This document shows, one piece after another, positions 23,861-36,604 of a DNA stretch of 64,000 bases. A program made the translations under genes and the position numbers. The stretch is from Candidatus Latescibacterota bacterium (GTDB lineage: Bacteria > Latescibacterota > UBA2968): the NCBI GenBank assembly GCA_965204745.1, contig OZ242010.1, positions 992,001 to 1,056,000 of the forward strand. The letters run 5' to 3'. Each line of letters begins with the position of its first letter. The first letter of the stretch is position 1. Below the pieces are notes generated by a model. It worked only from the letters and a program-made list of their open reading frames with translations, ran no database searches and was not told the origin of the DNA.

Positions 23861-24135
23861 AGGCCGTGCACCGCGCTTCGAACCGCTATCCCAGGGCGTT
23901 CAACGAGCGCTTGCTCCTGCCAGGTGCCCCTGCGGCACACGCGCCGATCTGCTTACCGCTGCTACCTTCCGGTCCTGACGGGGTTCGGCATAGGCACGTT
24001 GCGCAGGACCTGACGATCGACACTGCTCACTCATCGACCGCGATCCAAAATACCAGTTCTCAGACGTGGAATTCGACCCCGCTATAGCGGATTGCGGGCT
24101 ACAGGGCACCGCTATCTCCCCGTCTAGCACGACCT
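23861..24135 (-). ncRNA. ffs: Signal recognition particle RNA, large bacterial type with Alu domain
   Basis: Minus strand begins GGTCGTGCTAGACGGGGAGATAGCGGTGCCC (Alu 5' part) and contains helix-8 CCGTCAGGACCGGAAGGTAGCAGCGG; ends pair with GCACGGCC; upstream of dnaX. Confidence 0.9.
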
Positions 24136-24207: not shown

Positions 24208-24284
<77 letters not shown>

Positions 24285-24285
24285 C

Positions 24286-24657
24286 CTAAATGGCTTCGAC
24301 CGAGATATTATGCACGCCCGACACGGACTTGAGCACCGTGGCATCGTCTAAAACCCGGCCGATGATATTGACGGGACTGGCCGGGCGAATTTCATCGCCG
24401 CGACTGGCCGGGGTGTGTCCGTAAAAAATGCAGAACGCATGCCCCGGCGGCCAGTACCCGAGTTCGTTTAGCGACACGGTTTCGCGTGGATCTTCGGGGC
24501 CCATGTCGAGGGGAATGGCAAAATAAATCTCGTCGCCCCAAGTATTAAACGAGCACCTGAGTGGCAAAAGCGCGTAAATTTTGCGCGCTGTTTCCGAGTC
24601 GTTCAACTGCGCGGCGAGTTGAATATCGCCAACTGTGATGCGAATGGGATGTGGCAT
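24286..24657 (-). CDS. Cyclophilin-like fold protein (DUF369-like)
   Basis: NTWGDEIYF, LGYWPPGHAFCIFYG.TP, PASPVNIIG. Confidence 0.85.
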   Translation of the reverse strand: MPHPIRITVGDIQLAAQLNDSETARKIYALLPLRCSFNTWGDEIYFAIPLDMGPEDPRETVSLNELGYWPPGHAFCIFYGHTPASRGDEIRPASPVNIIGRVLDDATVLKSVSGVHNISVEAI

Positions 24658-24717
24658 AACGACCTCGTGCGCTAGCTGGCTGTGATCGGCGTTTCCATCG
24701 CGCCGATCTCGTGTTTT

Positions 24718-24807
<90 letters not shown>

Positions 24808-24859
24808 ACAATAGTTTTCGACTTTTCGCACGCCCTTTGTTGGGCATGTCGGTTTTGTT

Positions 24860-24948
<89 letters not shown>

Positions 24949-24956
24949 GCCGTATT

Positions 24957-25415
24957 TTATTTTTTTCGCAAAGTTTGAAAAAACGCCCGCAATATCCGGC
25001 TGCATTCCCCTTCCAAAACCCCTCGGCGCACGGCCAAGCGGTGATTCAAGCGTTTGTCTTCGACGATATTTCTCAAGGATCCGCAAGCCCCGGTTTTGGG
25101 ATCGCACGCGCCAAAGACCAATCGGGACAATCGGGCGAGCACCATCGCACCTGCACACATCGCACAGGGTTCGAGCGTGGCGTAAAGCGTGCAATCGGTC
25201 AGCCACCGAACCCCCAATTTTTTCGTGGCCCGTTGAAGAACGAGCATTTCGGCGTGCGCGGTGGGATCCTCTCGTTGAACGATGCGATTGTGGTCTCGTG
25301 CGATGACCTCGCCCTTGCACATCACAACCGCGCCAACGGGCACTTCGCGTTCACCTGCTGCTGCCCGGGCTTCTTCAAGGGCGAGTTTCATGCCTGTCAG
25401 ATCATCGTCCTGCAC
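24957..25415 (-). CDS. tadA: tRNA adenosine(34) deaminase
   Basis: EVPVGAV, DPTAHAE, TLEPCAMC, DPKTGACGS, LNH. Confidence 0.95.
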   Translation of the reverse strand: MQDDDLTGMKLALEEARAAAGEREVPVGAVVMCKGEVIARDHNRIVQREDPTAHAEMLVLQRATKKLGVRWLTDCTLYATLEPCAMCAGAMVLARLSRLVFGACDPKTGACGSLRNIVEDKRLNHRLAVRRGVLEGECSRILRAFFQTLRKK

Positions 25416-25661: not shown

Positions 25662-26387
25662 TCAGAATCGATCCCGAGTCTCATCTTCCACAGCACCAAT
25701 TTCTCGAACACGCACGGCGTATTGACCGCCTTCAAACGGGGTGCTCAGCCACGTCGCGACGATCTCCTTTGCTATGGTATTGCCCACCACGCCGACGCCG
25801 AGACACAAAATATTGGCATCGACATGGGCGCGGGCAAATTTGGCCGATGTCACATCGTGACACGATACAGCGCGAATCGCCTTTGTTTTGTTGGCGACGA
25901 TGGCAGCACCCGTGCCGCTTTCAGTTGCGACAATGCCCGTCATCAGATTATTCGCTGTCACCGCATCCGCCACCTCTTGGGCTATGCCGACATAAGAGGT
26001 TTCTCGCGGCGCGTGCGTCCCACAATCGATGATCTCCCGCCCGGCATCTCGCAACATTTGCACGATCTGTTTCTTCAGTTCAAATCCTTTGTGGTCTGCA
26101 CCAATCGCCACGACGCTCGATTTCTGGGGGTCTTGAATCGCCGCCTCATCATCAGACGCGACCAGACGCACTTTCTGTTGCCGTATCAAATCGCGTGCCA
26201 GTGGCGTCACAATCGCATTGGGCATCGCATAAACCGCATCGCCACCGCGGTTGATCGCGGATTTGACCAACTCTTCCGTCACCAAACTCGCCGGCGGGTC
26301 AAGCGGTTCAGGTACCGCGTTCCCCTCTAATGCCTTCAACCGTCGCACCACTTCGGCAACGATCCGCTGTATCGATTTTTCGTTCAT
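25662..26387 (-). CDS. RpiB/LacAB-family sugar-phosphate isomerase-like protein with N-terminal extension
   Basis: IGADHKG, ANK..AIRAV, AR.H.DANILCLG, WLSTPFEGG; ~90-aa N-terminal extension. Confidence 0.85.
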   Translation of the reverse strand: MNEKSIQRIVAEVVRRLKALEGNAVPEPLDPPASLVTEELVKSAINRGGDAVYAMPNAIVTPLARDLIRQQKVRLVASDDEAAIQDPQKSSVVAIGADHKGFELKKQIVQMLRDAGREIIDCGTHAPRETSYVGIAQEVADAVTANNLMTGIVATESGTGAAIVANKTKAIRAVSCHDVTSAKFARAHVDANILCLGVGVVGNTIAKEIVATWLSTPFEGGQYAVRVREIGAVEDETRDRF

Positions 26388-26410
26388 TGGTGGTTGTGTC
26401 TCCCGCGTCA

Positions 26411-26439
26411 ATAATAGACGCTCCGCGGGGGTTTGTCAA
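26411..26439 (-). promoter_or_regulatory. sigma70-type promoter of rpiB-like gene
   Basis: Minus strand TTGACA-N17-TATTAT. Confidence 0.65.
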
Positions 26440-26551: not shown

Positions 26552-26627
26552 TCCGGCGTAGCTCAGTCGGCAGAGCGAGTGGCTGTTAACCACTAAGTCG
26601 TAGGTTCGAGTCCTACCGCCGGAGCCA
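26552..26627 (+). tRNA. tRNA-Asn(GTT)
   Basis: TCCGGCG acceptor, AGTGG-CTGTTAA-CCACT anticodon arm, GGTTCGAGTCC, CCA. Confidence 0.96.
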
Positions 26628-26708: not shown

Positions 26709-27461
26709 ATGTCAGCAACCGCAAAACCCGATTTTGACGCGATTATGACCGATCTGGATGACCAGGGCTACTGCCTGATTCCCTCGGTCATTTCAGAGCG
26801 CGAGGCCGATGAGGCGCGCGTCATTTTGGAACGGGTGCTCAAAGCAGAGGCCACCGAGCAAGCCGCCAAAACGCAACGGGTGGGGCGCATCGCGGTCAAG
26901 CATCCGATCTTTCTCGAACTGATGGCGCATCCGACTATCGTGACCCTGTGGCGCGAATACCTCGGCGAGGACATGGTCTGTTCCACTTGGTCGGGCAATA
27001 GCATTTATCCGGGTGGGGACGCGATCAACTGGCATTCGGATTATCCGTATTGGTCCATCCGACCGCCCTATCCCCCCGGGCGTTTGGCCGGGCAAACGAT
27101 CTGGTTTCTCAACGATCTGACCGAGGAAAATGGCGCGACCACCATGTTGCCCCAAAGCCATCTGAAGGGCGAACCCCCGCCGCCCGAACTCAAGACGCAG
27201 TGGATTGAGGCTGGAAAAATTCTCACGGGCAAACGCGGCAGTGTCGCGGTCATGCACGGCGCGTGCTGGCACACGGCCCGCCCCAACAAGACCGATCAAA
27301 TCCGCTCTGTTCTGCTGGGGATGTACATGCGCCCGTGGTTTATTCCGCAAGAAGATATGCGCGGGCAACTGGCCGAATTGGAAAATCCGTCCGCATTGGT
27401 GCGCCAACTCATGTGCGCCAACCAACGCGAACCGCGCAGTGTCGGGGAAAATTCGGGTTGA
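26709..27461 (+). CDS. Phytanoyl-CoA dioxygenase (PhyH) family Fe/2OG oxygenase
   Basis: DQGYCLIP, WHSD, ENGAT.LPQSH, CWHTARPN...R. Confidence 0.9.
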   Translation: MSATAKPDFDAIMTDLDDQGYCLIPSVISEREADEARVILERVLKAEATEQAAKTQRVGRIAVKHPIFLELMAHPTIVTLWREYLGEDMVCSTWSGNSIYPGGDAINWHSDYPYWSIRPPYPPGRLAGQTIWFLNDLTEENGATTMLPQSHLKGEPPPPELKTQWIEAGKILTGKRGSVAVMHGACWHTARPNKTDQIRSVLLGMYMRPWFIPQEDMRGQLAELENPSALVRQLMCANQREPRSVGENSG

Positions 27462-27576: not shown

Positions 27577-29409
27577 TTACCGCACGGGTTGCAGGCTACT
27601 TTGCGGATGGGCTTCGAGGATGGCTTCGATCTCGCGTTGAAAGCGGTCGAGGGGTTCGGCGATTTGGTGGCGAAATTCTTCGCGGATGAGTTCGCAGTAT
27701 TCCTGCGCGGCTTTCAACATCACCTCGGCATTGTGTTGCAAGGTGCGATAATCGTCTTGGAAATGGTCAAAACGCCCGTGCAAGGCGTGCATCAATTTGC
27801 TCGCGTAATCCCCGACGTGTCTTTCTCGATAGCCTTCGCTGAATCGCTTCAGGTGATCGAGTGCCTCATCGAGGAAGGTCTTGACCTCATCGACTTGCAG
27901 GGCTTCGCGCGTGGTGAGAATGAGGTGATTGCCCTGAATGGCGAGGCGCAGGCCATCGCCAAAATCCCGGGGGTGATGCGCGAGCATATAGACCAGAAAT
28001 TTCCAGAAGGACCAGCGATACGTGCCGAGGATGCCCTGTCGCCAGATCGAGCGGAAGCACGCTTTAATTTCTGTCCAACCAACGGGCATAGACGAGACGG
28101 GCCTGCGCGTGCGATGGGCGTAATGCGTGCGGCAACGTTCAAAAAATATCTCGGGGCTGTTCAGGGTTTCCACGACCTGGCGATGGCGCGCCAGCAATTC
28201 GTCGGGATCGATGATGGGCACATAGCTCAACTGCCGGCTGAAGATCCCCGAATCGCCGGTGTATTTCACGCCTTCTATCAGGCGGCCCAACCGCTGGTAG
28301 CGTTTGTAATCGGGTGTGTCGCGCAGCACGCCCAAAATGCCGACCATTGCCACGGGGATGCCCGCTTCTCGGATGAATGCGATCATGCGGTCCGCAATGT
28401 CGTCCGGGTCCGTATCCAAGCCCATGATGAACCCGGCCTGAACCTCCATGCCATAGGCTTGCAACACCTTCACCTTGTCCAACAAAGGGGTATCGCCCTG
28501 TAAGTTTTTTTGCGCGCCCATAAACTTCAGGCTTTCGCGCACCGGGGATTCGATTCCCGCGAAAATTTTGTCAAAGCCAGCGAGGTGCATCGCCTCTAAG
28601 AGCGCGGGGTCGTCGCTGACGCGGATGCTGGCTTGGGTGTTGAATTGGAAGGGATACCCGCGTTCTCGTTGCCACGGGATCACCTCTTCCTCCAGGGTTT
28701 GCCGAATCTCCTCGCAGTTGCCGACGAAATTGTCATCGACCGCCATGATCGCGCCGCGCCAGCCCCGGTCGTAGAGCGCGTCGAGTTCTCGAATCACGCG
28801 GCTACTGTTTTTTAAGCGCGTGATTTTGCCGTAGAGCGATGGGATGTTGCAAAACGTGCAGCTTTCCGGACAGCCGCGGGTGATTTGAATGACCATCACC
28901 GTGTAGTCGTCAAAGTCGATCAGATCCCAGCGCGGCAACGGGGTTTTGACGAGGCTTTGAAATTCGCCGCGCCGGTCGATGTATTCGCGCCCCACTTGTT
29001 GCGGTTCGGTCACTAGGCGATCTACCACGTCCATAAAGCCGTTTTCAGCTTCGCCTAAATAAAAGACCGCATCCCCTTCGATTTCCTCGCAATACTGCGT
29101 GGGCAATGGGCCGCCGTTGAGCACGGGCACGCCCACGGCATTGCACTGGGCGATGATTTCTTCAAGGGAGTGCCAGTGGATGATCATGGACGAGGTAATC
29201 GCGATGTCCGCCCAATGCAGGTCGTCATCTGTCAGGGGTTGCACATTGACATCCACGACCCGCAAGTCGTAGTGATCGGGCATCAGGCCGGCGATAGTCA
29301 ACAGCCCCAATGGCGGGAATGCGGACTTTTTCCCGACCAATTTCAGGGCTTCGTCAAAACTCCAAAACGTCACGGGATTTTTCGGATACACGAGAAGCGC
29401 GTTGGGCAT
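27577..29409 (-). CDS. Cobalamin-binding radical SAM protein (DUF4070-type C-terminus)
   Basis: PPLGLLTIA B12 domain, RGCPESCTFC CxxxCxxC, DDNF, GIES, GFIMGLDTD. Confidence 0.9.
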   Translation of the reverse strand: MPNALLVYPKNPVTFWSFDEALKLVGKKSAFPPLGLLTIAGLMPDHYDLRVVDVNVQPLTDDDLHWADIAITSSMIIHWHSLEEIIAQCNAVGVPVLNGGPLPTQYCEEIEGDAVFYLGEAENGFMDVVDRLVTEPQQVGREYIDRRGEFQSLVKTPLPRWDLIDFDDYTVMVIQITRGCPESCTFCNIPSLYGKITRLKNSSRVIRELDALYDRGWRGAIMAVDDNFVGNCEEIRQTLEEEVIPWQRERGYPFQFNTQASIRVSDDPALLEAMHLAGFDKIFAGIESPVRESLKFMGAQKNLQGDTPLLDKVKVLQAYGMEVQAGFIMGLDTDPDDIADRMIAFIREAGIPVAMVGILGVLRDTPDYKRYQRLGRLIEGVKYTGDSGIFSRQLSYVPIIDPDELLARHRQVVETLNSPEIFFERCRTHYAHRTRRPVSSMPVGWTEIKACFRSIWRQGILGTYRWSFWKFLVYMLAHHPRDFGDGLRLAIQGNHLILTTREALQVDEVKTFLDEALDHLKRFSEGYRERHVGDYASKLMHALHGRFDHFQDDYRTLQHNAEVMLKAAQEYCELIREEFRHQIAEPLDRFQREIEAILEAHPQSSLQPVR

Positions 29410-29581
29410 GGGGTCATCCTTTCGCAAAAGGCGCGGACAAATAAGGGCGTAGCAAACGATACGTCTTCCCCAATATACGATATTTTTTGGTTGCTACACC
29501 AAAAAAAATCCCTAACTTAACGGCGCGGAGAAAAGGCGGATCGCGGATGAAACGGATTACGCGGATTACGCGGATAAAAGG

Positions 29582-29967: not shown

Positions 29968-30717
29968 ATGATCGCGGAAGAAGATATTTGGTATTTCAAG
30001 ACCACGGGGTTTTACAGGGTGCGCGAGACATTGCCCGATGATCTGATCGACCGGTTGAATGCCGTGACCGAGAGGCAGATTGCGGACATGTGCGAACCCA
30101 TTGTTTGGGAGGACAAAGGGCCGCAGTGCCCGGCGACTGTGCGGCGGTTGTCGAAAATTTTTTCCCGCGATGCGGTCTATCTCCAAGCCGCGACGCATCC
30201 GATCATCCTCGACGCGCTCGAGGGCATTCTCGGGCCGAACATCGAGGTGTTGACCAACAAACACAATCACGTCATGGTGCGCCCGGCCGGATCGTATCCG
30301 GTGCCGTGGCACGCGGGGGAAGAACCCTACGACCACACGCTGATCACCGGGTTGATTTACCTCGAGGAATCCACAGTCGAAAACGGTTGCGTCCGCATCG
30401 TGCCCGGTAGCCACAATCGCCCGTTTTTGAACCCGCGCCGACCGCAGGCGCAACGGGATGATTTTTACGACAGCGACCACTATTACCGCGCCTTGCCCGT
30501 CCCGATGCCGCGAGGCGGTGTTTTGTTATTTAACGATTGTTGCTATCACGGATCGGATACGAACCGATCCGCGCATTCCCGGCGCAGCATGACCGTGGCC
30601 TATCGCGCCCACGACGCCCACGATGTCGTCAAAGACGATCCGGAGAAACTTCTCGTTCGCGGTGAAAAGGTCTATACCGGTCACCCGCATCCCTATCCCA
30701 TCCCGGTTCAGAAATAG
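29968..30717 (+). CDS. PhyH-family Fe/2OG enzyme with HxG motif (candidate halogenase)
   Basis: ENGCVRIVPGSH, YHGSDTNRS..RR; first iron motif is WHAG rather than WHxD. Confidence 0.85.
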   Translation: MIAEEDIWYFKTTGFYRVRETLPDDLIDRLNAVTERQIADMCEPIVWEDKGPQCPATVRRLSKIFSRDAVYLQAATHPIILDALEGILGPNIEVLTNKHNHVMVRPAGSYPVPWHAGEEPYDHTLITGLIYLEESTVENGCVRIVPGSHNRPFLNPRRPQAQRDDFYDSDHYYRALPVPMPRGGVLLFNDCCYHGSDTNRSAHSRRSMTVAYRAHDAHDVVKDDPEKLLVRGEKVYTGHPHPYPIPVQK

Positions 30718-30721
30718 TCCC

Positions 30722-31480
30722 ATGCTCACGATGCGACAAGTCCAACTCTTTCGGAACAACGGATTTTTGCGCCTGCCGAACCGGTTGCCCTCGGACTTGG
30801 TCAAAGACCTGAAGGCCGCGATTATGGCCGATCTCAACGGCGAGGTCAAACCCCTTGTCCGCAACGAGGATGGGCGGGCCGTGCGTATTTCCGCGCTGAT
30901 GGACCGCGCGCCGATTTTCCGAGAAGCCGCCACGCATCTGTTCGCGCTCGACCCGCTCGAATCGCTTTTGGGGCCGAATATCGAAATCCTCACCAACCGC
31001 CACAATCACGCGACCTTGCGAACCTCTGGGGAAAACAAGCGCGACGCCCTGCACCGCGATGTCAAGCAATGGACGCGCAATATTTTCACGATCATTTTTT
31101 ACCTCGAAGAAACCACGGTTGAAAATGGTTGCACCCGCATCGTGCCCGGCTCGCACCACTTCCCCGGCGTCAGCATGTCCATTCACAACGCGGCCTGGGC
31201 GTGCGACGTACTCGCACAAGCCCTGCCCGTGCCCATGCCCGCAGGCGGGATGCTCGTGATCGATAGCATGGTCATTCACGGGCCGGGGGAAAACCACACA
31301 GCCGACACGCGCATGAGCATGACCATCGGCTATCACAGCGTCGACGAACTGATGGACATCCCCAACCCCAAACGCCTGCTCGTGCGCGGCGAGGGGGTGT
31401 ACCATGGAAACGAGGAGTCCGCGAATGTCCGAAATGCGACAAAGACAAAAATTGCTCTTTCTGTATCTCGGCAATTCTAG
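30722..31480 (+). CDS. PhyH-family Fe/2OG oxygenase
   Basis: LHRD, ENGCTRIVPGSH, IHGPGEN...R; close paralog of preceding gene. Confidence 0.88.
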   Translation: MLTMRQVQLFRNNGFLRLPNRLPSDLVKDLKAAIMADLNGEVKPLVRNEDGRAVRISALMDRAPIFREAATHLFALDPLESLLGPNIEILTNRHNHATLRTSGENKRDALHRDVKQWTRNIFTIIFYLEETTVENGCTRIVPGSHHFPGVSMSIHNAAWACDVLAQALPVPMPAGGMLVIDSMVIHGPGENHTADTRMSMTIGYHSVDELMDIPNPKRLLVRGEGVYHGNEESANVRNATKTKIALSVSRQF

Positions 31481-31715
31481 CCCAGAGAGCGAAGTCGTTG
31501 CGTGGTCGCTTTACGACGGCACGACTGACGAAACATTTGAAGCGGCAGGCGAACATGCCGAGCCGCCTTACGCATCGGTGCTCGATGCCATGCGCGATGG
31601 CTGGCGCGTCATTCAAGTGCCCGCGCTCAAAACCCCGCAGGTGGGTCGAGAATACGAAAACGATTATCTCGACTTCGAATTTGTGTTGGAGAAAATGGAG
31701 GCGGTAAATGGATAA
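31425..31715 (+). CDS. Small hypothetical protein in PhyH operon
   Basis: RBS gaggag; PPYASVLDAMRDGWRVIQ; overlaps both neighbouring PhyH genes. Confidence 0.7.
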   Translation: MSEMRQRQKLLFLYLGNSSPESEVVAWSLYDGTTDETFEAAGEHAEPPYASVLDAMRDGWRVIQVPALKTPQVGREYENDYLDFEFVLEKMEAVNG

Positions 31716-32559: not shown

Positions 32560-33447
32560 ATGCACTTGTCTATGCACAACTGGATGCGCTCGGAACCCCT
32601 TGAGGTCACGCTTGAGCGATTGGCAAAATTTGGGTATGAGAGCATCGAACTCAGCGGCGAACCCGAGCGTTGCGATACCGCAGAAGTCCGTGCGTTGTTG
32701 AACAAATACGAGATCCGCTGCTGGGGGGCGGTCACGCTGATGATGGGCGACCGCAACATGCTCGCCAAAGACGAGGCGGTTCGCGCCCAATCCGTGCAGT
32801 ACGTCAAAGACTGCGTCACGATGGTCAAAGAGCTCGAAGGGTGCGAACTGACGGTGGTGCCGGCCACAGTGGGCAAGATCGAACCGGAGTCCACGCCGGA
32901 GAATGAATGGGAATGGGCGGTCGCCGGCATGCGGGAGGTTTATGAGCATTCAGAGCGAGAAGGCGTGCGCCTCGCCATTGAACCCATCAATCGCTTCGAG
33001 ACGTATTTTATCACGCGAGGCGCCCAAGCCCTCGCGCTCGCCGAAGCGACAGGGCCCCATTGCGGCGTGTGTTTAGACGCTTTTCACATCAATATCGAGG
33101 AGGCCGATCCCCATCGCGCCATTCGAGATGCGGGTGACCGGTTGGTGGATTTTCACGTGGCCGACAACAATCGCATGGCGTGTGGCTTGGGCAACTGGGA
33201 TTGGGCGAACTTGGTCGCAACCCTGAAAGAGGTGGGGTATGATGGCGCGCTCACGGTTGAATTTGTCGCGCCCATTGATCGAACGCCTGCCAATGAATAT
33301 CCCAATGCGGTCGAGACCGATCCGGTGGATATCACGCCCGAGGAGCTCAAGTTTATTCAGGATCACGGCAGCAGTCTTTTGAGCGAGGAATTTTACACGT
33401 TTCTCGTCAAAAAGACCGCCGAGACGTTGTTGCCGCTGATCGCGTAG
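32560..33447 (+). CDS. Sugar phosphate isomerase/epimerase (D-psicose/D-tagatose 3-epimerase-like TIM barrel)
   Basis: IEPINRFETY, LDAFHINIEE, HVADNNR, TVEF. Confidence 0.88.
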   Translation: MHLSMHNWMRSEPLEVTLERLAKFGYESIELSGEPERCDTAEVRALLNKYEIRCWGAVTLMMGDRNMLAKDEAVRAQSVQYVKDCVTMVKELEGCELTVVPATVGKIEPESTPENEWEWAVAGMREVYEHSEREGVRLAIEPINRFETYFITRGAQALALAEATGPHCGVCLDAFHINIEEADPHRAIRDAGDRLVDFHVADNNRMACGLGNWDWANLVATLKEVGYDGALTVEFVAPIDRTPANEYPNAVETDPVDITPEELKFIQDHGSSLLSEEFYTFLVKKTAETLLPLIA

Positions 33448-33461
33448 ATGGAGGGCAAACC

Positions 33462-34454
33462 ATGGCACGAAAAATTCTCGTTATGAACAATCTCCAAAAT
33501 CCCGAGTTTGAATCCGAGGCGCGGGCAAAGGCGCTCGATAGGTTGCGCGAATACGCCGAGGTCGCGTTTTATTCCACATCCGAACTGGCAACCGAACACG
33601 CGGCGGGCGTGGTGGGCGTTTTGGCGGATTCCGTCGTTTTCACGCCGCAATTCTACGCCGCCGCACGCGATTTGCGGATCGTCGCTCGCTGGGGCGTTGG
33701 GTTTGAAAAAGTGGATGTGCCGCGTGCGACCGATTGCGGTGTCCTCGTCACGGTTGCACCGGTTCACATGGTCACGGTTGCCGAATACGCCATTGCCCAA
33801 TGGATGGCAACGCTCAAACGCGCTTATACGCTGAACCGAAACAGCCATGCGGGCGATTTTCGGATTATCAAGACGTATGAGGCGCAAGGCTCGACTTTGG
33901 GGATTTGGGGCCTCGGGCGAATCGGGCGGGCAATGGCCGAACGTGCGCGTCCGCTTCTCGGGGCTTCGGGCCGGTTGCTCGTTTGCGATATCCGTCCCGA
34001 TATTCACGACATTGCGGCGCAATATCATGCCGAGGTGGTGGATGATCCCCGCGACCTGTTTGAAGCGTGCGATGCCATTTCGCTCCATCTTTCCGGAGAT
34101 GAGACGGTCGTCACCTACGATTTGCTCTGCGCGATGCAACCCCATGCGTCGCTCATCAATCCCTCGCGCGGCAATTTGGTGGATGACGAAGCCGTGAACC
34201 GCGCGATCAGAGAAGAACGCCTGTATTATTACGTGGTGGATGATCCGGTCGATCAGACCCGTGCGATTCACAAAGACCACCCCCGCATTATCTGCACCAA
34301 TCACAACGCGGGGATTTCCGTCGAATCGGCCATTCGCCTCGACGAGTGTTGCGCGGAACAAATCATCGCCGCACTTGAAGGGCGCACGCCGGATCATGTG
34401 CTCAATCCCGAGGTGCTCGCTCACCCGCGCGTTCGGAGATTTCTCAATGCGTAA
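33462..34454 (+). CDS. D-isomer-specific 2-hydroxyacid dehydrogenase family
   Basis: ARWGVGFEKVD, GIWGLGRIG, INPSRG, NHNAG. Confidence 0.88.
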   Translation: MARKILVMNNLQNPEFESEARAKALDRLREYAEVAFYSTSELATEHAAGVVGVLADSVVFTPQFYAAARDLRIVARWGVGFEKVDVPRATDCGVLVTVAPVHMVTVAEYAIAQWMATLKRAYTLNRNSHAGDFRIIKTYEAQGSTLGIWGLGRIGRAMAERARPLLGASGRLLVCDIRPDIHDIAAQYHAEVVDDPRDLFEACDAISLHLSGDETVVTYDLLCAMQPHASLINPSRGNLVDDEAVNRAIREERLYYYVVDDPVDQTRAIHKDHPRIICTNHNAGISVESAIRLDECCAEQIIAALEGRTPDHVLNPEVLAHPRVRRFLNA

Positions 34455-34481: not shown

Positions 34482-34508
34482 TAAAACGCGCTTTTCAGCG
34501 CGTTTTTT
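34482..34508. terminator. Bidirectional terminator
   Basis: aaaacgcgct-tttc-agcgcgtttttt. Confidence 0.7.
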
Positions 34509-34649: not shown

Positions 34650-35594
34650 CTATTTGCTGAATGCGTCGATCGCTTTTGTTGCGATCTCTACCGACCTCTT
34701 TTCCTTGTCAATTCCGATATATCGCCTGCCTTCGCGCAAGGCTGCCAAAGCCGTCGTGCCGCTTCCCACAAAACAATCGAGTACAATGTCATCGGGTTCG
34801 GTAAATAGTTTAATGACGCGCCGAGGAAGCTCAATGGGAAACTTGGACTCGTGATCCGAATTGCTTCGCACAGAGGGGATTTCCCACACGCCTCGGGAAC
34901 CCCAGTTGCCCCATTCTCGCTTTGTAAGCCGCGATCTATCTACTTTTGTGATCCCCGGCTTCCAAAAAGCGTAGAGATATTCCGATTCATCGACAGAACG
35001 GTAGGATATGGTATGCCATCTCGAATTTTCCCATGCGGCGTCTTTTACCCAGATACGCCGGTCGTACAAGTAAAAACCCGCGTCTTTAGCGGCGCGTTCG
35101 ATTAACCCACCGACGAGATAAACTCGCGTTTGGGGTTGGTATTTTCCACCTCTGATATTGTTGCCGTTGAGCCGCCGATCAATGGTTTGCTCACTGCATC
35201 CAAAGTGTTCTGCGAGTTTGTACCTGTTCCAATTCGGATGCTGTTTTACAACCTTTAGGATGTCTTCTTTTTTCAGATCGATTTTTCTGCGTGAGATGTT
35301 TTCCGCCATGATTTTTGGCATCTTCTCATCCTTAAAACACAGTATATCCGCGATATTGATCACCAGAAACCCACCGGGTTTTAGGATGGGGAAATGTCGC
35401 TTAATCACCTCGCGCAAAAGATTTTTCCAATCTTCAAAAGACAAATTTTTCTCGTATTCCTTGCCGACATAATAGGGCGGCGACCATACGCTCAGGGCAA
35501 TGGATTCCCGTTCGATCCGCCTTAAAAGTTGCCGTGAATCCCCGTGATATATTTCGTTCGGCACAAGTGGGTTAGGTACAGTTACGGTTGCCAT
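34650..35594 (-). CDS. Beta-class N4-cytosine DNA methyltransferase with internal HTH-like segment
   Basis: WSPPY (motif IV) precedes DCFVGSGTT (motif I); low GC; overlaps REase gene. Confidence 0.92.
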   Translation of the reverse strand: MATVTVPNPLVPNEIYHGDSRQLLRRIERESIALSVWSPPYYVGKEYEKNLSFEDWKNLLREVIKRHFPILKPGGFLVINIADILCFKDEKMPKIMAENISRRKIDLKKEDILKVVKQHPNWNRYKLAEHFGCSEQTIDRRLNGNNIRGGKYQPQTRVYLVGGLIERAAKDAGFYLYDRRIWVKDAAWENSRWHTISYRSVDESEYLYAFWKPGITKVDRSRLTKREWGNWGSRGVWEIPSVRSNSDHESKFPIELPRRVIKLFTEPDDIVLDCFVGSGTTALAALREGRRYIGIDKEKRSVEIATKAIDAFSK

Positions 35595-36301
35595 GACCCT
35601 CTACACTCCTGTTTTGTTCGATCATAAGTAAGCGTTTGTATCCGCCACGTAGCCTTGGATTTCAACCTTCTAAAGCCAACCCTTACCCTGAAATCTTCGT
35701 CCAATGTTGGGGCATTTCTACCAGCTAGCCAAATGCCATCGCCAGCCCTTGGATTGTACCTTCTTTGCAATTTTCCATTCGGAATTGCTACAACATTCAC
35801 TTCCCTCAGATGATGGGTACCCCTGCTATCATCGCAGTACATAAAATGCACAAGGCAAGTCGTTGTCAGATAATTTTTGTCGCCATATTCGGATATTTCT
35901 GGCAAAAACCCTTTTTCATTTACCTGGCGACCTGACCGCATTTGTCTTACCCACATGGAAGTTTGCGACATCTGAATGGTTGCAGAACGATTTTCCTTTT
36001 CGGCCTTTGAGTCAATAAACAATGCCTGTCTCACGGTTTGATCGGGAAGGATCACATATCTTGCTTTCTTGTAATCCACCGTTCCATAGACTCTTTGCTG
36101 GACATTAAATCCCGAAAGCCGATCAAGCAATTCTCTCGTGATGTCCTCGGCAATATCTTTAACGCTATCAGGCGAGTTGAGGAATATCTCATGTGCTTCC
36201 ATTCCAAAATCATAAACCGCTTGAAATATCCAGCGCAAAGTGAGTTTTTCAATTTCCTCAATTTCATTTAAGGACAGTGTGTTTGGGTCTTTCTCTGTCA
36301 T
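35582..36301 (-). CDS. SfiI-family type II restriction endonuclease
   Basis: IEKLTLR, AEDIT, G.VDYK, FIDSKAE, MSQ, P..KLQRRYNP, RVRV.F.RLK...WR follow the SfiI sequence pattern as recalled. Confidence 0.85.
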   Translation of the reverse strand: MTEKDPNTLSLNEIEEIEKLTLRWIFQAVYDFGMEAHEIFLNSPDSVKDIAEDITRELLDRLSGFNVQQRVYGTVDYKKARYVILPDQTVRQALFIDSKAEKENRSATIQMSQTSMWVRQMRSGRQVNEKGFLPEISEYGDKNYLTTTCLVHFMYCDDSRGTHHLREVNVVAIPNGKLQRRYNPRAGDGIWLAGRNAPTLDEDFRVRVGFRRLKSKATWRIQTLTYDRTKQECRGSWQP

Positions 36302-36604
36302 GTCTTTACATCCTTTGAACGGTATGCCAATGGACGTAACCGTTCCTATCAATCGAAAACGGAGCCGTCTTTTTTCTTATGCACGTCATCGTGCGTTTCC
36401 CTCGTTCAAGATACACCGATCCACTTGTGCGTCAAGTTGTAGTTCCACTCTCCAAAATGGCGATGGAAAGTCGTTTTACAAAAAACGCCCCGGCAATACC
36501 CGTGCGTCTCCATTTCGCAACCATTGCGTTTGCGCGCCAAATCGCCTATTATGTTCACCCCTTGTCAACTCGAATGCGTCCAATTCACCACTCGGAGAAC
36601 CGCC

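What the first reader, a model, noticed from the sequence alone, without database searches (positions are those of the whole stretch)
29968..31480. Candidate Fe(II)/2-oxoglutarate halogenase (HxG) paired with its HxD hydroxylase-type paralog
Seen: the gene at 29968 encodes ...PW-H-A-G-EE... (CAC GCG GGG, 30310-30318) where the other three PhyH proteins here have canonical HxD (WHSD, LHRD, LHQD). Its distal His and 2OG-binding Arg (YHGSDTNRSAHSRR) are intact. The next gene is a close paralog (LEGILGPNIEVLTNKHNH vs LESLLGPNIEILTNRHNH; ENGCVRIVPGSH vs ENGCTRIVPGSH) that keeps HRD. Established: replacing the facial-triad carboxylate with Gly/Ala opens a halide site and defines radical halogenases (SyrB2/CytC3 HxA; WelO5, BesD HxG). 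Inference: a carrier-independent aliphatic halogenase that arose by tandem duplication from a hydroxylase. It sits in an operon with no NRPS or carrier protein, so the substrate would be a free small molecule, and the pair is a natural model for halogenation vs hydroxylation.
Basis: partly seen in the sequence, partly recalled or inferred. Interest (0 to 1): 0.8.

Follow-up and report, generated by a model that had tools for sequence, protein, structure and literature searches.

The report
Oxygenase with relocated iron-binding carboxylate
The gene really lacks the usual iron-binding aspartate, but it carries a replacement aspartate four residues before its second iron-binding histidine, as in the known oxygenase HygX, so it is probably an ordinary oxygenase and not a chlorinating enzyme.

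Summary
The gene at 29968-30717 encodes a 249-aa PhyH-family Fe(II)/2-oxoglutarate protein with H115-A-G117 (CAC GCG GGG, 30310-30318), distal H194 and R205. The next gene (30722-31480) is a 38%-identical paralog with HRD.

HxG is not a private mutation. W-H-x-G-E was read in 115 of 120 listed relatives and in 79 of 80 genome loci, with all four Gly codons in use. The HxG clade is monophyletic and sister to the clade of the HRD paralog.

The halogenase reading is probably wrong. Gly117 is perfectly coupled with Asp190, four residues before the distal His:
- 78 of 78 readable loci carry this Asp.
- 0 of 112 HxD relatives carry an acidic residue there.
- The one natural revertant (HRD) has Gly there.
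- The true halogenases SyrB2 and CytC3 have Ser there.

This gives the motif H-x-G...D-x3-H. It matches the motif H-X-G...E-X3-H of HygX, a solved oxidative cyclase in which the acidic ligand is relocated. HygX-like paralogs also occur in this genome.

The gene context is catabolic and no carrier protein, NRPS or PKS was seen nearby.

Best reading (0.7): an oxygenase with an independently relocated carboxylate. Halogenase: about 0.08. I could not measure the Asp190-iron distance.

The parts
29968..30717 (+). Gene 1: PhyH-family Fe(II)/2OG protein, 249 aa, motif H115-x-G117 ... D190-x3-H194 ... R205
   Evidence: AF2 model pLDDT 89, pTM 0.87
30310..30321 (+). Codons H115 (CAC), A116 (GCG), G117 (GGG), E118 (GAA): the proximal HxG motif followed by the invariant Glu
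   Evidence: conservation
30535..30549 (+). Codons D190 (GAT), C191, C192, Y193, H194 (CAC): proposed relocated carboxylate, then the distal His (D-x3-H)
   Evidence: coupling with G117; HygX precedent
30580..30582 (+). Codon R205 (CGG): presumed binder of the 2OG C5-carboxylate, invariant
   Evidence: role inferred from the PhyH family
30722..31480 (+). Gene 2: PhyH paralog, 252 aa, canonical H111-R-D113 (31052-31060), Ser182 (AGC 31265-31267) at -4 of distal H186 (31277-31279), R197
27577..29427 (-). Divergently transcribed B12-binding radical SAM protein with DUF4070, 616 aa. A conserved neighbour of gene 1 and gene 2 in 36 of 80 related loci.
31404..31715 (+). Small ORF (103 aa, no Pfam or NCBIfam match) that overlaps the end of gene 2 and the start of the next gene. 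It is part of the same-strand gene run in this window only.
   Evidence: weak relatives in L047 and L075
31708..32538 (+). Third PhyH gene of the run (LHQD, canonical)
32560..33447 (+). Xylose-isomerase-like TIM-barrel protein (best NCBIfam match 5-keto-L-gluconate epimerase IolO, below its cut-off)
33462..34454 (+). D-2-hydroxyacid dehydrogenase family protein; last gene of the run
34483..34506 (.). Bidirectional terminator-like hairpin that closes the gene run
   Evidence: a consensus match only
26709..27461 (+). Fourth PhyH gene of the neighbourhood (WHSD, canonical)

Best explanation
Gene 1 is a catalytically competent Fe(II)/2-oxoglutarate oxygenase of the PhyH superfamily. The carboxylate of its 2-His-1-carboxylate iron site has moved. 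It has left the usual place two residues after the first His, which is now Gly117. It now sits four residues before the second His, as Asp190.

This gives the motif H115-x-G117 ... D190-x3-H194, with R205 holding 2-oxoglutarate. It is the arrangement known from the solved oxidative cyclase HygX (H-X-G...E-X3-H), but it arose independently and uses Asp instead of Glu.

With three protein ligands the iron has no free site for a halide. The expected chemistry is therefore ordinary ferryl chemistry (hydroxylation or a related oxidation) on a free small molecule.

From the acidic loop E118-E119, the closest solved relatives and the neighbouring genes, the substrate is perhaps a cationic or sugar-derived catabolic substrate. 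Gene 1 probably works in the same pathway as its HRD paralog and the divergently transcribed B12-radical SAM enzyme.

Shown: the motifs, their conservation and the coupling of the two positions. Inferred: that Asp190 binds iron, the reaction type and the substrate class.
For: (1) Coupling of the two positions.
- In 122 representative relatives aligned, the 112 HxD proteins have Ser 57, Gly 27, Cys 9, Ala 9 or another non-acidic residue at -4 of the distal His. None has Asp or Glu.
- All 6 full-length HxG proteins have Asp there.
- Among the query plus its 120 close relatives (121 sequences), 111 were read as Gly+Asp. A further 3 show NDCCFH or NDACFH where my regex failed. Six are truncated or frameshifted.
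- In genome loci, 78 of 78 with both motifs intact have Asp. Both Asp codons are used (GAC 61, GAT 14 of the 75 counted).

(2) Natural swap. P0119 is nested in the HxG clade as sister of P0116 (support 100/99). It has HRD and Gly at -4. The carboxylate is therefore at one place or the other, never at both or neither.

(3) True halogenases of the same superfamily do not have it. SyrB2 reads ...FWSTLMH and CytC3 reads ...FWSNTMH, so both have Ser at -4 (alignments).

(4) Precedent.
- HygX (4xc9, 4xca, 4xcb, 4zpi) reads YLHGG ... NEALMHGT in the alignment.
- D190 aligns with that Glu through L087.

(5) The same pattern recurs. A HygX-like subfamily in this genome (for example C1:57105-57872) has HGG in 115 of 120 relatives and Glu at -4 in 118 of 120. 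In the genome's own 66 PhyH ORFs with both motifs aligned, an acidic -4 occurs in 6 of 8 that lack the +2 carboxylate and in 3 of 58 with HxD.

(6) Independent origin. Gene 1 is 25% identical to L087. Its nearest relatives are HxD proteins.

(7) Distribution. Gene 1 behaves like a vertically kept housekeeping or catabolic gene. It occurs in 73 of 168 genomes of the phylum, in families f1 27/30, f2 19/22 and f4 26/76, mostly as a single copy.
Against: - No coordinates of the model were available to me, so the distance from Asp190 to the metal site was not measured. Whether Asp, one methylene shorter than HygX's Glu, can reach iron is not shown.
- The coupling rests on only two independent evolutionary events: one gain and one reversal.
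- BesD, a true free-substrate halogenase, has a conserved second-sphere Glu near the halide site (bioRxiv 10.1101/2023.05.25.542349, passages). A nearby carboxylate is therefore not by itself incompatible with halogenation.
- The field uses HXG/A as the halogenase rule, and it has found real halogenases (PMC11186838 and PMC12871659, passages).
- No substrate or product is known for any member of the clade.
Confidence: 0.7

Rival explanations
1. Carrier-independent radical halogenase. Gly117 opens a halide site on iron. Asp190 and Glu118 are second-sphere residues that bind a cationic substrate and gate anion binding, as Glu119 does in BesD.
For: - HxG is strictly conserved under purifying selection.
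- H194 and R205 are intact.
- HXG/A is the accepted mining rule.
- BesD has a conserved Glu near the halide site that salt-bridges the substrate amine.
- Many relatives come from marine or sponge-associated genomes, by their record titles.
Against: - Asp at -4 is absent from SyrB2 and CytC3, which have Ser, and from all 112 HxD relatives.
- It swaps with the +2 Asp in the revertant P0119, which looks like conservation of one ligand.
- The same motif in HygX belongs to an oxygenase.
- Gene 1 scores 24.3 bits against TIGR01762 'chlorinating enzyme' (cut-off 226.3). That is the same as its HRD paralog (23.4) and below several HxD paralogs of the genome, the best of which scores 71.6.
- No NRPS, PKS or carrier protein is present. 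The neighbours are sulfatases, GH2, Gfo/Idh/MocA, an M19 peptidase and enolase-superfamily genes.
Confidence: 0.08
2. True two-histidine oxygenase of the AspH kind. Iron is held by H115 and H194 only and water fills the third place. Asp190 is second-sphere (hydrogen bond and charge balance). The enzyme hydroxylates without a halide.
For: - AspH is a natural HXG...H hydroxylase with two protein ligands (PMC10947486, passages).
- FIH Asp-to-Gly keeps some activity (same passage).
- Asp is shorter than HygX's Glu and may not reach the metal.
Against: The strict either/or pattern of the two Asp positions and the HygX structure favour direct ligation. AspH belongs to a different subfamily.
Confidence: 0.12
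3. Register shift: Glu118, directly after Gly117, is the carboxylate ligand (H-x-x-E).
For: Glu118 is invariant in the main clade. Gly117 would give the backbone freedom.
Against: - The sub-clade P0123/P0125 keeps Gly, Asp190, both His and the Arg but has Ala in place of Glu118, together with K98W.
- The revertant P0119 keeps Glu beside its restored Asp (HRDE).
- DhiD (8zyb) reads HRDE. SyrB2 reads HQAD although its described ligands are His116, His235 and chloride.
- An acidic +3 residue therefore coexists with other ligand sets.
Confidence: 0.05
4. Gene 1 is a non-catalytic or auxiliary subunit of a heterodimer with the HRD paralog.
For: - The two genes are adjacent, 4 bp apart here.
- A gene-2-type partner is present in 38 of 80 loci, one of them split.
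- Another PhyH gene follows directly in 6 more loci.
Against: - About 20 of 80 loci have no PhyH gene within 6 kb, among them the 93%-identical L001.
- H115, H194, R205 and D190 are all under strict conservation, which a passive subunit would not need.
Confidence: 0.05

Closest known systems
HygX (hygromycin B orthoester-forming Fe/2OG oxygenase; PDB 4xc9, 4xca, 4xcb, 4zpi)
   Same: - PhyH-type double-stranded beta-helix.
- First His followed by x-Gly instead of x-Asp.
- Acidic residue exactly four residues before the distal His.
- An oxygenase, not a halogenase.
- The profile of the gene 1 family finds it at E 5.4e-7.
   Different: - Asp instead of Glu.
- Only about 25% identity to the HygX-like paralog L087.
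- The nearest relatives of gene 1 are HxD proteins, so the relocation is an independent event.
- HygX sits in an antibiotic gene cluster, whereas gene 1 does not.
- HygX's Lys137, said to fill the gap, has no identified counterpart here.
SyrB2 and CytC3 (carrier-protein-dependent Fe/2OG halogenases, PhyH superfamily)
   Same: - Same fold. Foldseek TMq 0.64-0.65 to SyrB2; profile E 7.8e-7 to SyrB2 and 1.7e-3 to CytC3.
- No carboxylate at +2 of the first His.
- SyrB2 also has an acidic residue at +3 (HQAD).
   Different: - Ser, not Asp, at -4 of the distal His.
- They use HxA, not HxG.
- They act on carrier-bound amino acids in NRPS clusters.
- Gene 1 is far below the TIGR01762 cut-off.
BesD and HalB family (free-amino-acid halogenases, HxG)
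   Same: - HxG.
- Free-standing substrate.
- Halogenase and hydroxylase relatives occur in one family.
- A conserved acidic residue lies near the vacant site.
   Different: A different subfamily, with no match in my PDB searches. Its Glu119 lies before the HxG in sequence and is second-sphere.
AspH (human aspartyl/asparaginyl beta-hydroxylase)
   Same: A natural HXG...H protein that hydroxylates and does not halogenate.
   Different: A different subfamily and a protein substrate. No relocated carboxylate is described in the passages I read.
EvdO1, AviO1, human PhyH, EctD (canonical HxD members)
   Same: Best sequence and fold matches of gene 1: EvdO1 E 4.9e-7 and Foldseek rank 1; PhyH 2e-18 and EctD 1.5e-17 with the profile.
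   Different: All of them have HxD.

Membership tests
PhyH superfamily of Fe(II)/2OG oxygenases (PF05721) | Match to the Pfam model above its gathering score | tested here: met
   87.7 bits against a cut-off of 22, E 1.8e-24, profile positions 2-213 of 213
PhyH superfamily of Fe(II)/2OG oxygenases (PF05721) | Double-stranded beta-helix fold | tested here: met
   AF2 model pLDDT 89. Foldseek TMq 0.64-0.71 to EvdO1, proline hydroxylase H11, PhyH, SnoN/SnoK, GriE and SyrB2.
PhyH superfamily of Fe(II)/2OG oxygenases (PF05721) | Two iron-binding His and the 2OG-binding Arg | tested here: met
   H115, H194 and R205 are invariant in A1
PhyH superfamily of Fe(II)/2OG oxygenases (PF05721) | Canonical HxD/E carboxylate | tested here: not met
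   Gly117
HygX-type relocated facial triad (H-X-G...E-X3-H) | Gly at +2 of the first His | tested here: met
HygX-type relocated facial triad (H-X-G...E-X3-H) | Acidic residue at -4 of the distal His | tested here: met
   Asp190, present in 78 of 78 readable loci. It is Asp and not Glu, and it aligns with HygX's Glu through L087.
HygX-type relocated facial triad (H-X-G...E-X3-H) | That acidic residue ligates the iron | not testable with these tools
The claim is inferred from the coupling of positions 117 and 190 and from the HygX description.
HygX-type relocated facial triad (H-X-G...E-X3-H) | Common descent with HygX | tested here: not met
   25% identity to the HygX-like paralog. Gene 1 is sister to HxD proteins in the tree. 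It works like HygX at the metal site but is not a member of its subfamily.
Fe(II)/2OG radical halogenases | Ala or Gly in place of the triad carboxylate (HxA/G) | tested here: met
Fe(II)/2OG radical halogenases | No protein carboxylate able to take the vacated site, leaving an open halide pocket | tested here: inconclusive
   Asp190 is present where SyrB2 and CytC3 have Ser, and it co-varies with position 117. The geometry was not measured.
Fe(II)/2OG radical halogenases | Membership of a known halogenase family model (TIGR01762 'chlorinating enzyme') | tested here: not met
   24.3 bits against a cut-off of 226.3. The HRD paralog scores 23.4. No ORF of the genome is over the cut-off.
Fe(II)/2OG radical halogenases | Halide-dependent turnover and a halogenated product | not testable with these tools
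   Needs biochemistry
Fe(II)/2OG radical halogenases | Setting in a natural-product gene cluster, or with a carrier protein | tested here: not met
   No NRPS, PKS or PP-binding domain among the 9 window proteins, 52 locus proteins and 31 locus proteins scanned. This feature is not obligatory for free-substrate halogenases.

The most novel reading that the evidence does not exclude
Gene 1 is after all a carrier-independent halogenase of a new clade, spread through Latescibacterota, Gemmatimonadota and sponge symbionts. Asp190 and Glu118 would then not bind iron. They would form an electrostatic lock that admits halide only together with a cationic substrate, as in BesD. The natural Gly/Asp swap in P0119 would then mark a halogenase-to-hydroxylase switch.
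Probability: 0.08. Interest if true: 0.8.

Novelty: new variant of a known kind. Interest (0 to 1): 0.4.

Why it matters
Three reasons.

1. It is a concrete false-positive class for the widely used rule 'HxG/A = halogenase'. The gene 1 clade has 132 clusters at E<=1e-10. The much larger HygX-like subfamily has 1321 clusters at E<=1e-10. Both carry HxG, yet both have an acidic residue at -4 of the distal His. Adding the test 'no Asp/Glu at -4 of the distal His' would clean up mining pipelines.

2. If Asp190 binds iron, the facial-triad carboxylate has moved to the same alternative place twice independently, once as Glu and once as Asp. In one lineage it has moved back. That is a natural experiment on the plasticity of the 2-His-1-carboxylate site, which engineered rearrangements in prolyl hydroxylase did not tolerate.

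3. The pair gene 1 / gene 2 remains a useful matched pair. It would serve to compare a canonical with a relocated triad, not halogenation with hydroxylation.

Tried and rejected
Geometry. The AF2 model comes without coordinates and /data holds none. I could not measure the distance from Asp190 or Glu118 to the metal site.

Fold search. Foldseek against the PDB does not separate halogenases from hydroxylases: all matches have TMq 0.63-0.71.

Complex of gene 1 with gene 2: weak support.
- Score (ipSAE) 0.39 (runs 0.46, 0.21, 0.39); best of 3 controls 0.00.
- The mark was reached by 116 of 157 solved complexes and 2 of 215 mismatched pairs. At 0.60 or under it was reached by only 18 of those 157 and by both mismatches that passed.
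- The runs agree in at least 0% of contacts. The partner's pLDDT is at least 79. My own alignments were used.
- A heterodimer of two PhyH-like oxygenases (TlxI/TlxJ, 7vbq, listed) is solved, so any pass may be from likeness. That 7vbq is a heterodimer is recalled, not read.
- I draw no conclusion from this job.

Searches that added nothing.
- NCBIfam: the best match of gene 1 is methylphosphonate hydroxylase at 35.6 bits against a cut-off of 500. No assignment follows.
- ESM Atlas: only generic PhyH clusters.
- Rfam over the window: nothing near the genes.
- Promoter scan: no more sites than in shuffles.
- Earlier findings: nothing.

Considered and dropped.
- A RiPP cluster (B12-rSAM plus oxygenases): no precursor-like ORF or other RiPP gene was seen.
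- An anaerobic sulfatase-maturating enzyme for the rSAM: its domains are B12-binding plus DUF4070, which is not the domain make-up I recall for those enzymes (a SPASM domain; recalled, not tested).

Literature.
- I looked for a statement that SyrB2 Ser231 lines the chloride pocket, which I recall from Blasiak et al. 2006 (not seen). Searches found nothing. PMC2663892 is not held. PMC8407142 has nothing on it. That point remains recalled only.
- No paper on this clade appeared in the listings. I judged this from titles and abstracts only.
Full report
**What is there**

The ORF list and the raw sequence show an ATG at 29968 and a stop at 30715-30717. It also carries CCY-H194-GS and S-R205-R-SMT.

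Four bases after its stop, a second gene (30722-31480, P0004, 252 aa) reads L-H111-R-D113. The two are 38% identical (91 of 241, E 5e-53).

All four PhyH genes of the neighbourhood match PF05721 well above the cut-off. The other two carry WHSD and LHQD.

**Is HxG a private change?**

No. A search of 5.8 billion clustered proteins gave 132 relatives at E<=1e-10.
- Of the 120 listed, 115 show W-H-x-G-E (x = A, S, T or R).
- One shows WHRGAS (P0123) and one WHRDEP (P0119).
- The rest are fragments.

In one genome per species of GTDB, 186 stretches encode a relative. Of the 80 loci kept, 79 show W-H-x-G-E, and L080 is cut off before the motif.

All four Gly codons are in use (GGC 36, GGT 22, GGA 11, GGG 10). 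The residue is therefore held by selection, although one base change in GGC or GGT would give Asp.

The hosts, by record title, are mostly Latescibacterota. Gemmatimonadota, Poribacteria, Planctomycetota and Acidobacteriota also occur. Within the window's phylum the gene is found in 73 of 168 genomes, concentrated in three families and mostly single-copy.

**Phylogeny**

A profile search of 1.84 billion representatives (11170 hits at E<=1e-3, 81 at E<=1e-30) supplied more distant relatives. I then built a maximum-likelihood tree of 46 rows.
- The HxG proteins form one clade of 27 rows (support 100/99).
- That clade is sister (93/76) to the clade that holds gene 2 and other HRD proteins.
- Inside the HxG clade there is one HxD protein, P0119. 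It is sister of P0116 (WHRGEP) with support 100/99, so it is a reversal.
- A sub-clade, P0123/P0125, has lost the Glu after the Gly (WHRGA).

**The decisive point: a second change coupled to Gly117**

I compared positions conserved within, but different between, 104 gene 1 orthologs and 23 gene 2 orthologs. The result was 14 positions, among them G117/D and D190/S. Position 190 lies four residues before the distal His.

Across 122 aligned representatives:
- The 112 HxD proteins have Ser 57, Gly 27, Cys 9, Ala 9 and a few other non-acidic residues there. None has Asp or Glu.
- The 6 full-length HxG proteins all have Asp.
- The remaining 4 rows, all Gly at position 117, are three fragments with a gap at position 190 and the degenerate P0141 (Ser).
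- The revertant P0119 has HRD together with Gly at position 190.

Among the query plus its 120 close relatives (121 sequences):
- 111 were read as Gly+Asp.
- 3 more show N-D-C/A-C-F-H where my regex failed.
- 6 are truncated or frameshifted.
- 1 is P0119.

In the genome loci, 75 were read by regex and 3 more by eye, all with Asp. Two loci are broken.

The carboxylate is therefore present at exactly one of the two places in every intact protein I examined.

**How true halogenases and a known oxygenase look at that place**

A paralog of this genome pulled SyrB2 and CytC3 to the top of a PDB search, and their alignments could then be read.
- SyrB2: WHQAD ... FWSTLMH.
- CytC3: WHQAA ... FWSNTMH.
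- Both therefore have Ser at -4.

A second group of paralogs in this genome reads LHGG ... TEALxHGT.
- Its relatives number 1321 at E<=1e-10.
- Of the 120 listed, 115 contain HGG and 118 have Glu at -4. A further one was missed by my regex.
- The solved relative of this group is HygX (4xc9, 4xca, 4xcb, 4zpi; E 1.3e-10). In the alignment it reads YLHGG ... NEALMHGT.

A 2026 review, of which I read the passages that mention HygX (PMC13374393), makes three points. [quoted passage not shown] HygX converts hygromycin C to hygromycin B in vitro by oxidative cyclisation. Lys137 fills the gap.

Gene 1's N-D190-C-C-Y-H194 aligns residue for residue with T-E-A-L-I-H of the HygX-like paralog. Gene 1 therefore has the HygX arrangement with Asp in place of Glu.

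It shares only 25% identity with that paralog, and its nearest relatives are HxD proteins. The arrangement therefore arose a second time.

**What about the Glu after the Gly?**

I rate it low, for these reasons.
- P0123 and P0125 keep Gly117, Asp190, both His and the Arg, but have Ala for Glu118, together with K98W.
- P0119 keeps the Glu beside its restored Asp.
- DhiD reads HRDE.
- SyrB2 reads HQAD although its ligands are described as His116, His235 and chloride (PMC2767507, passages).

The joint change of K98 and E118 hints at a salt bridge or a shared role in the substrate pocket, but it is a single event.

From memory of the ectoine hydroxylase structures (not checked here), the loop after HxD lines the substrate pocket. 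The acidic pair E118-E119 would then suit a cationic substrate.

**Context**

In the window, gene 1 heads a same-strand run: gene 2, a 103-aa ORF, a third PhyH gene, a xylose-isomerase-like TIM-barrel gene and a 2-hydroxyacid dehydrogenase. The run is closed by a hairpin at 34483-34506. A B12-binding radical SAM gene with DUF4070 lies upstream on the other strand.

Only part of this is conserved.
- The rSAM gene is found next to gene 1 in 36 of 80 loci.
- A gene-2-type paralog is found in 38 of 80 loci, one of them split and three several kb away.
- The downstream genes of the window are not conserved.
- Around the trio lie SGSH-like sulfatases (L003, L017, L027, L068) and Gfo/Idh/MocA oxidoreductases (7 of the 10 trio loci I scanned).
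- Where the trio is absent, gene 1 sits beside GH2 glycosidases, M19 peptidases, enolase-superfamily genes with another PhyH gene, U32 peptidases, or a LacI regulator with a TonB receptor.

Nothing among the 92 neighbour proteins scanned is an NRPS, a PKS or a carrier protein. The setting is catabolic, and the genome itself holds at least 66 PhyH-like ORFs. This fits a substrate-specific oxygenase better than a natural-product halogenase. It is only circumstantial evidence.

**Structure**

The AF2 model is confident (pLDDT 89, pTM 0.87).
- H115 ends a strand (112-115).
- Residues 116-125 form a loop.
- Residues 185-189 form a strand.
- Residues 190-193 form a turn.
- H194 starts the next strand.

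The loop after the first His and the turn before the second lie at the same end of the barrel by the usual topology. This makes contact between positions 117 and 190 plausible. I had no coordinates, so this is inference.

Foldseek finds the whole PhyH superfamily at similar scores, with EvdO1 first and SyrB2 at rank 34.

**Literature on the rule**
- HXG/A is used as the signature of iron halogenases (PMC12871659 and PMC11186838, passages).
- AspH is a natural HXG...H hydroxylase (PMC10947486, passages).
- Asp-to-Ala or Asp-to-Gly in prolyl hydroxylase gives neither activity, and swapping the ligand positions kills the enzyme (PMC2767507, passages).
- BesD has a second-sphere Glu that gates chloride and lysine binding (bioRxiv 10.1101/2023.05.25.542349, outline and passages). 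This last point keeps a small door open for the halogenase reading.

**Verdict**

The inference to halogenation skips a compensating Asp. That Asp reproduces a known, structurally documented variant of the iron site in an oxygenase.

I put:
- 0.7 on an oxygenase with a relocated carboxylate;
- 0.12 on a two-His oxygenase with Asp190 in the second sphere;
- 0.08 on a halogenase;
- 0.05 on Glu118 as the ligand;
- 0.05 on an auxiliary subunit.

The reaction and the substrate remain unknown.

Noticed in passing
window 27577-29427 (-), and L003-L080: A 616-aa B12-binding radical SAM protein with DUF4070 is divergently paired with gene 1 and gene 2 in 36 of 80 related loci. Its best NCBIfam matches (PhpK family 58 bits, ApyD 55 bits) are far below their cut-offs. 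An oxygen-sensitive rSAM enzyme next to two oxygen-dependent oxygenases could mean anaerobic and aerobic routes for one substrate, or successive steps.
   Followed up: partly
G000:C1:57105-57872, 1171290-1172084, 2071145-2072056, 2084455-2085348, 2934585-2935346 (outside the window): HygX-like PhyH paralogs with L-H-G-G (or HGS, HRG) and T-E-A-L-x-H-G-T. The subfamily has 1321 clusters at E<=1e-10. Of the 120 listed, 115 have HGG and 118 have Glu at -4 of the distal His. A plain HxG rule would call all of them halogenases.
   Followed up: partly
G000:C1:2082566-2086454 (outside the window): Four tandem PhyH paralogs read H-G-[AGN]-G-E-P, and some have a second H-R-D/E six residues later. The profile alignment of their iron ligands is ambiguous.
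   Followed up: no
G000:C1:2983961-2984926 (outside the window): A PhyH paralog with W-H-Q-H at the HxD place, a possible three-His site.
   Followed up: no
whole genome G000: Very large PhyH expansion: 107 domain hits to my PhyH profile, and 66 ORFs with both iron motifs alignable, in a 5.48-Mb genome. Related genomes gave 50-200 first-look candidates each.
   Followed up: partly
P0119 (metagenome protein, 273 aa): A natural revertant inside the HxG clade: HRD together with Gly at -4 of the distal His. It is sister to P0116, which has HRG and Asp at -4. This is a ready-made pair for testing the swap.
   Followed up: partly
P0123 and P0125: A sub-clade with WHRGA, so the Glu after the Gly is lost, together with K98W in the N-K-H-N-H motif. 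This suggests that Lys98 and Glu118 interact.
   Followed up: no
window 31404-31715 (+): A 103-aa ORF with no family match overlaps the 3' end of gene 2 by 77 nt and the start of the next PhyH gene by 8 nt. Weak relatives (36-38% identity) occur in L047 and L075, about 4 kb from their gene 1.
   Followed up: no
window 34650-36352 (-): A restriction-modification pair, an N4/N6 DNA methylase and an SfiI-family type II endonuclease, sits directly after the gene run.
   Followed up: no
window 23864-24132 (-), 24211-24948 (-), 26552-26624 (+): Bacterial large SRP RNA and four tRNA genes. A tadA-like deaminase (24957-25415) and an RpiB/LacAB-family isomerase with an N-terminal extension (25662-26411) lie between them.
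   Followed up: no
L001 (OZ251458.1) and G108, G042: The closest relative locus (93% identical gene 1) has neither the HRD paralog nor the rSAM gene within 6 kb. Two orthologs carry an in-frame stop (G108 TAA, G042 TGA) and may be pseudogenes.
   Followed up: no
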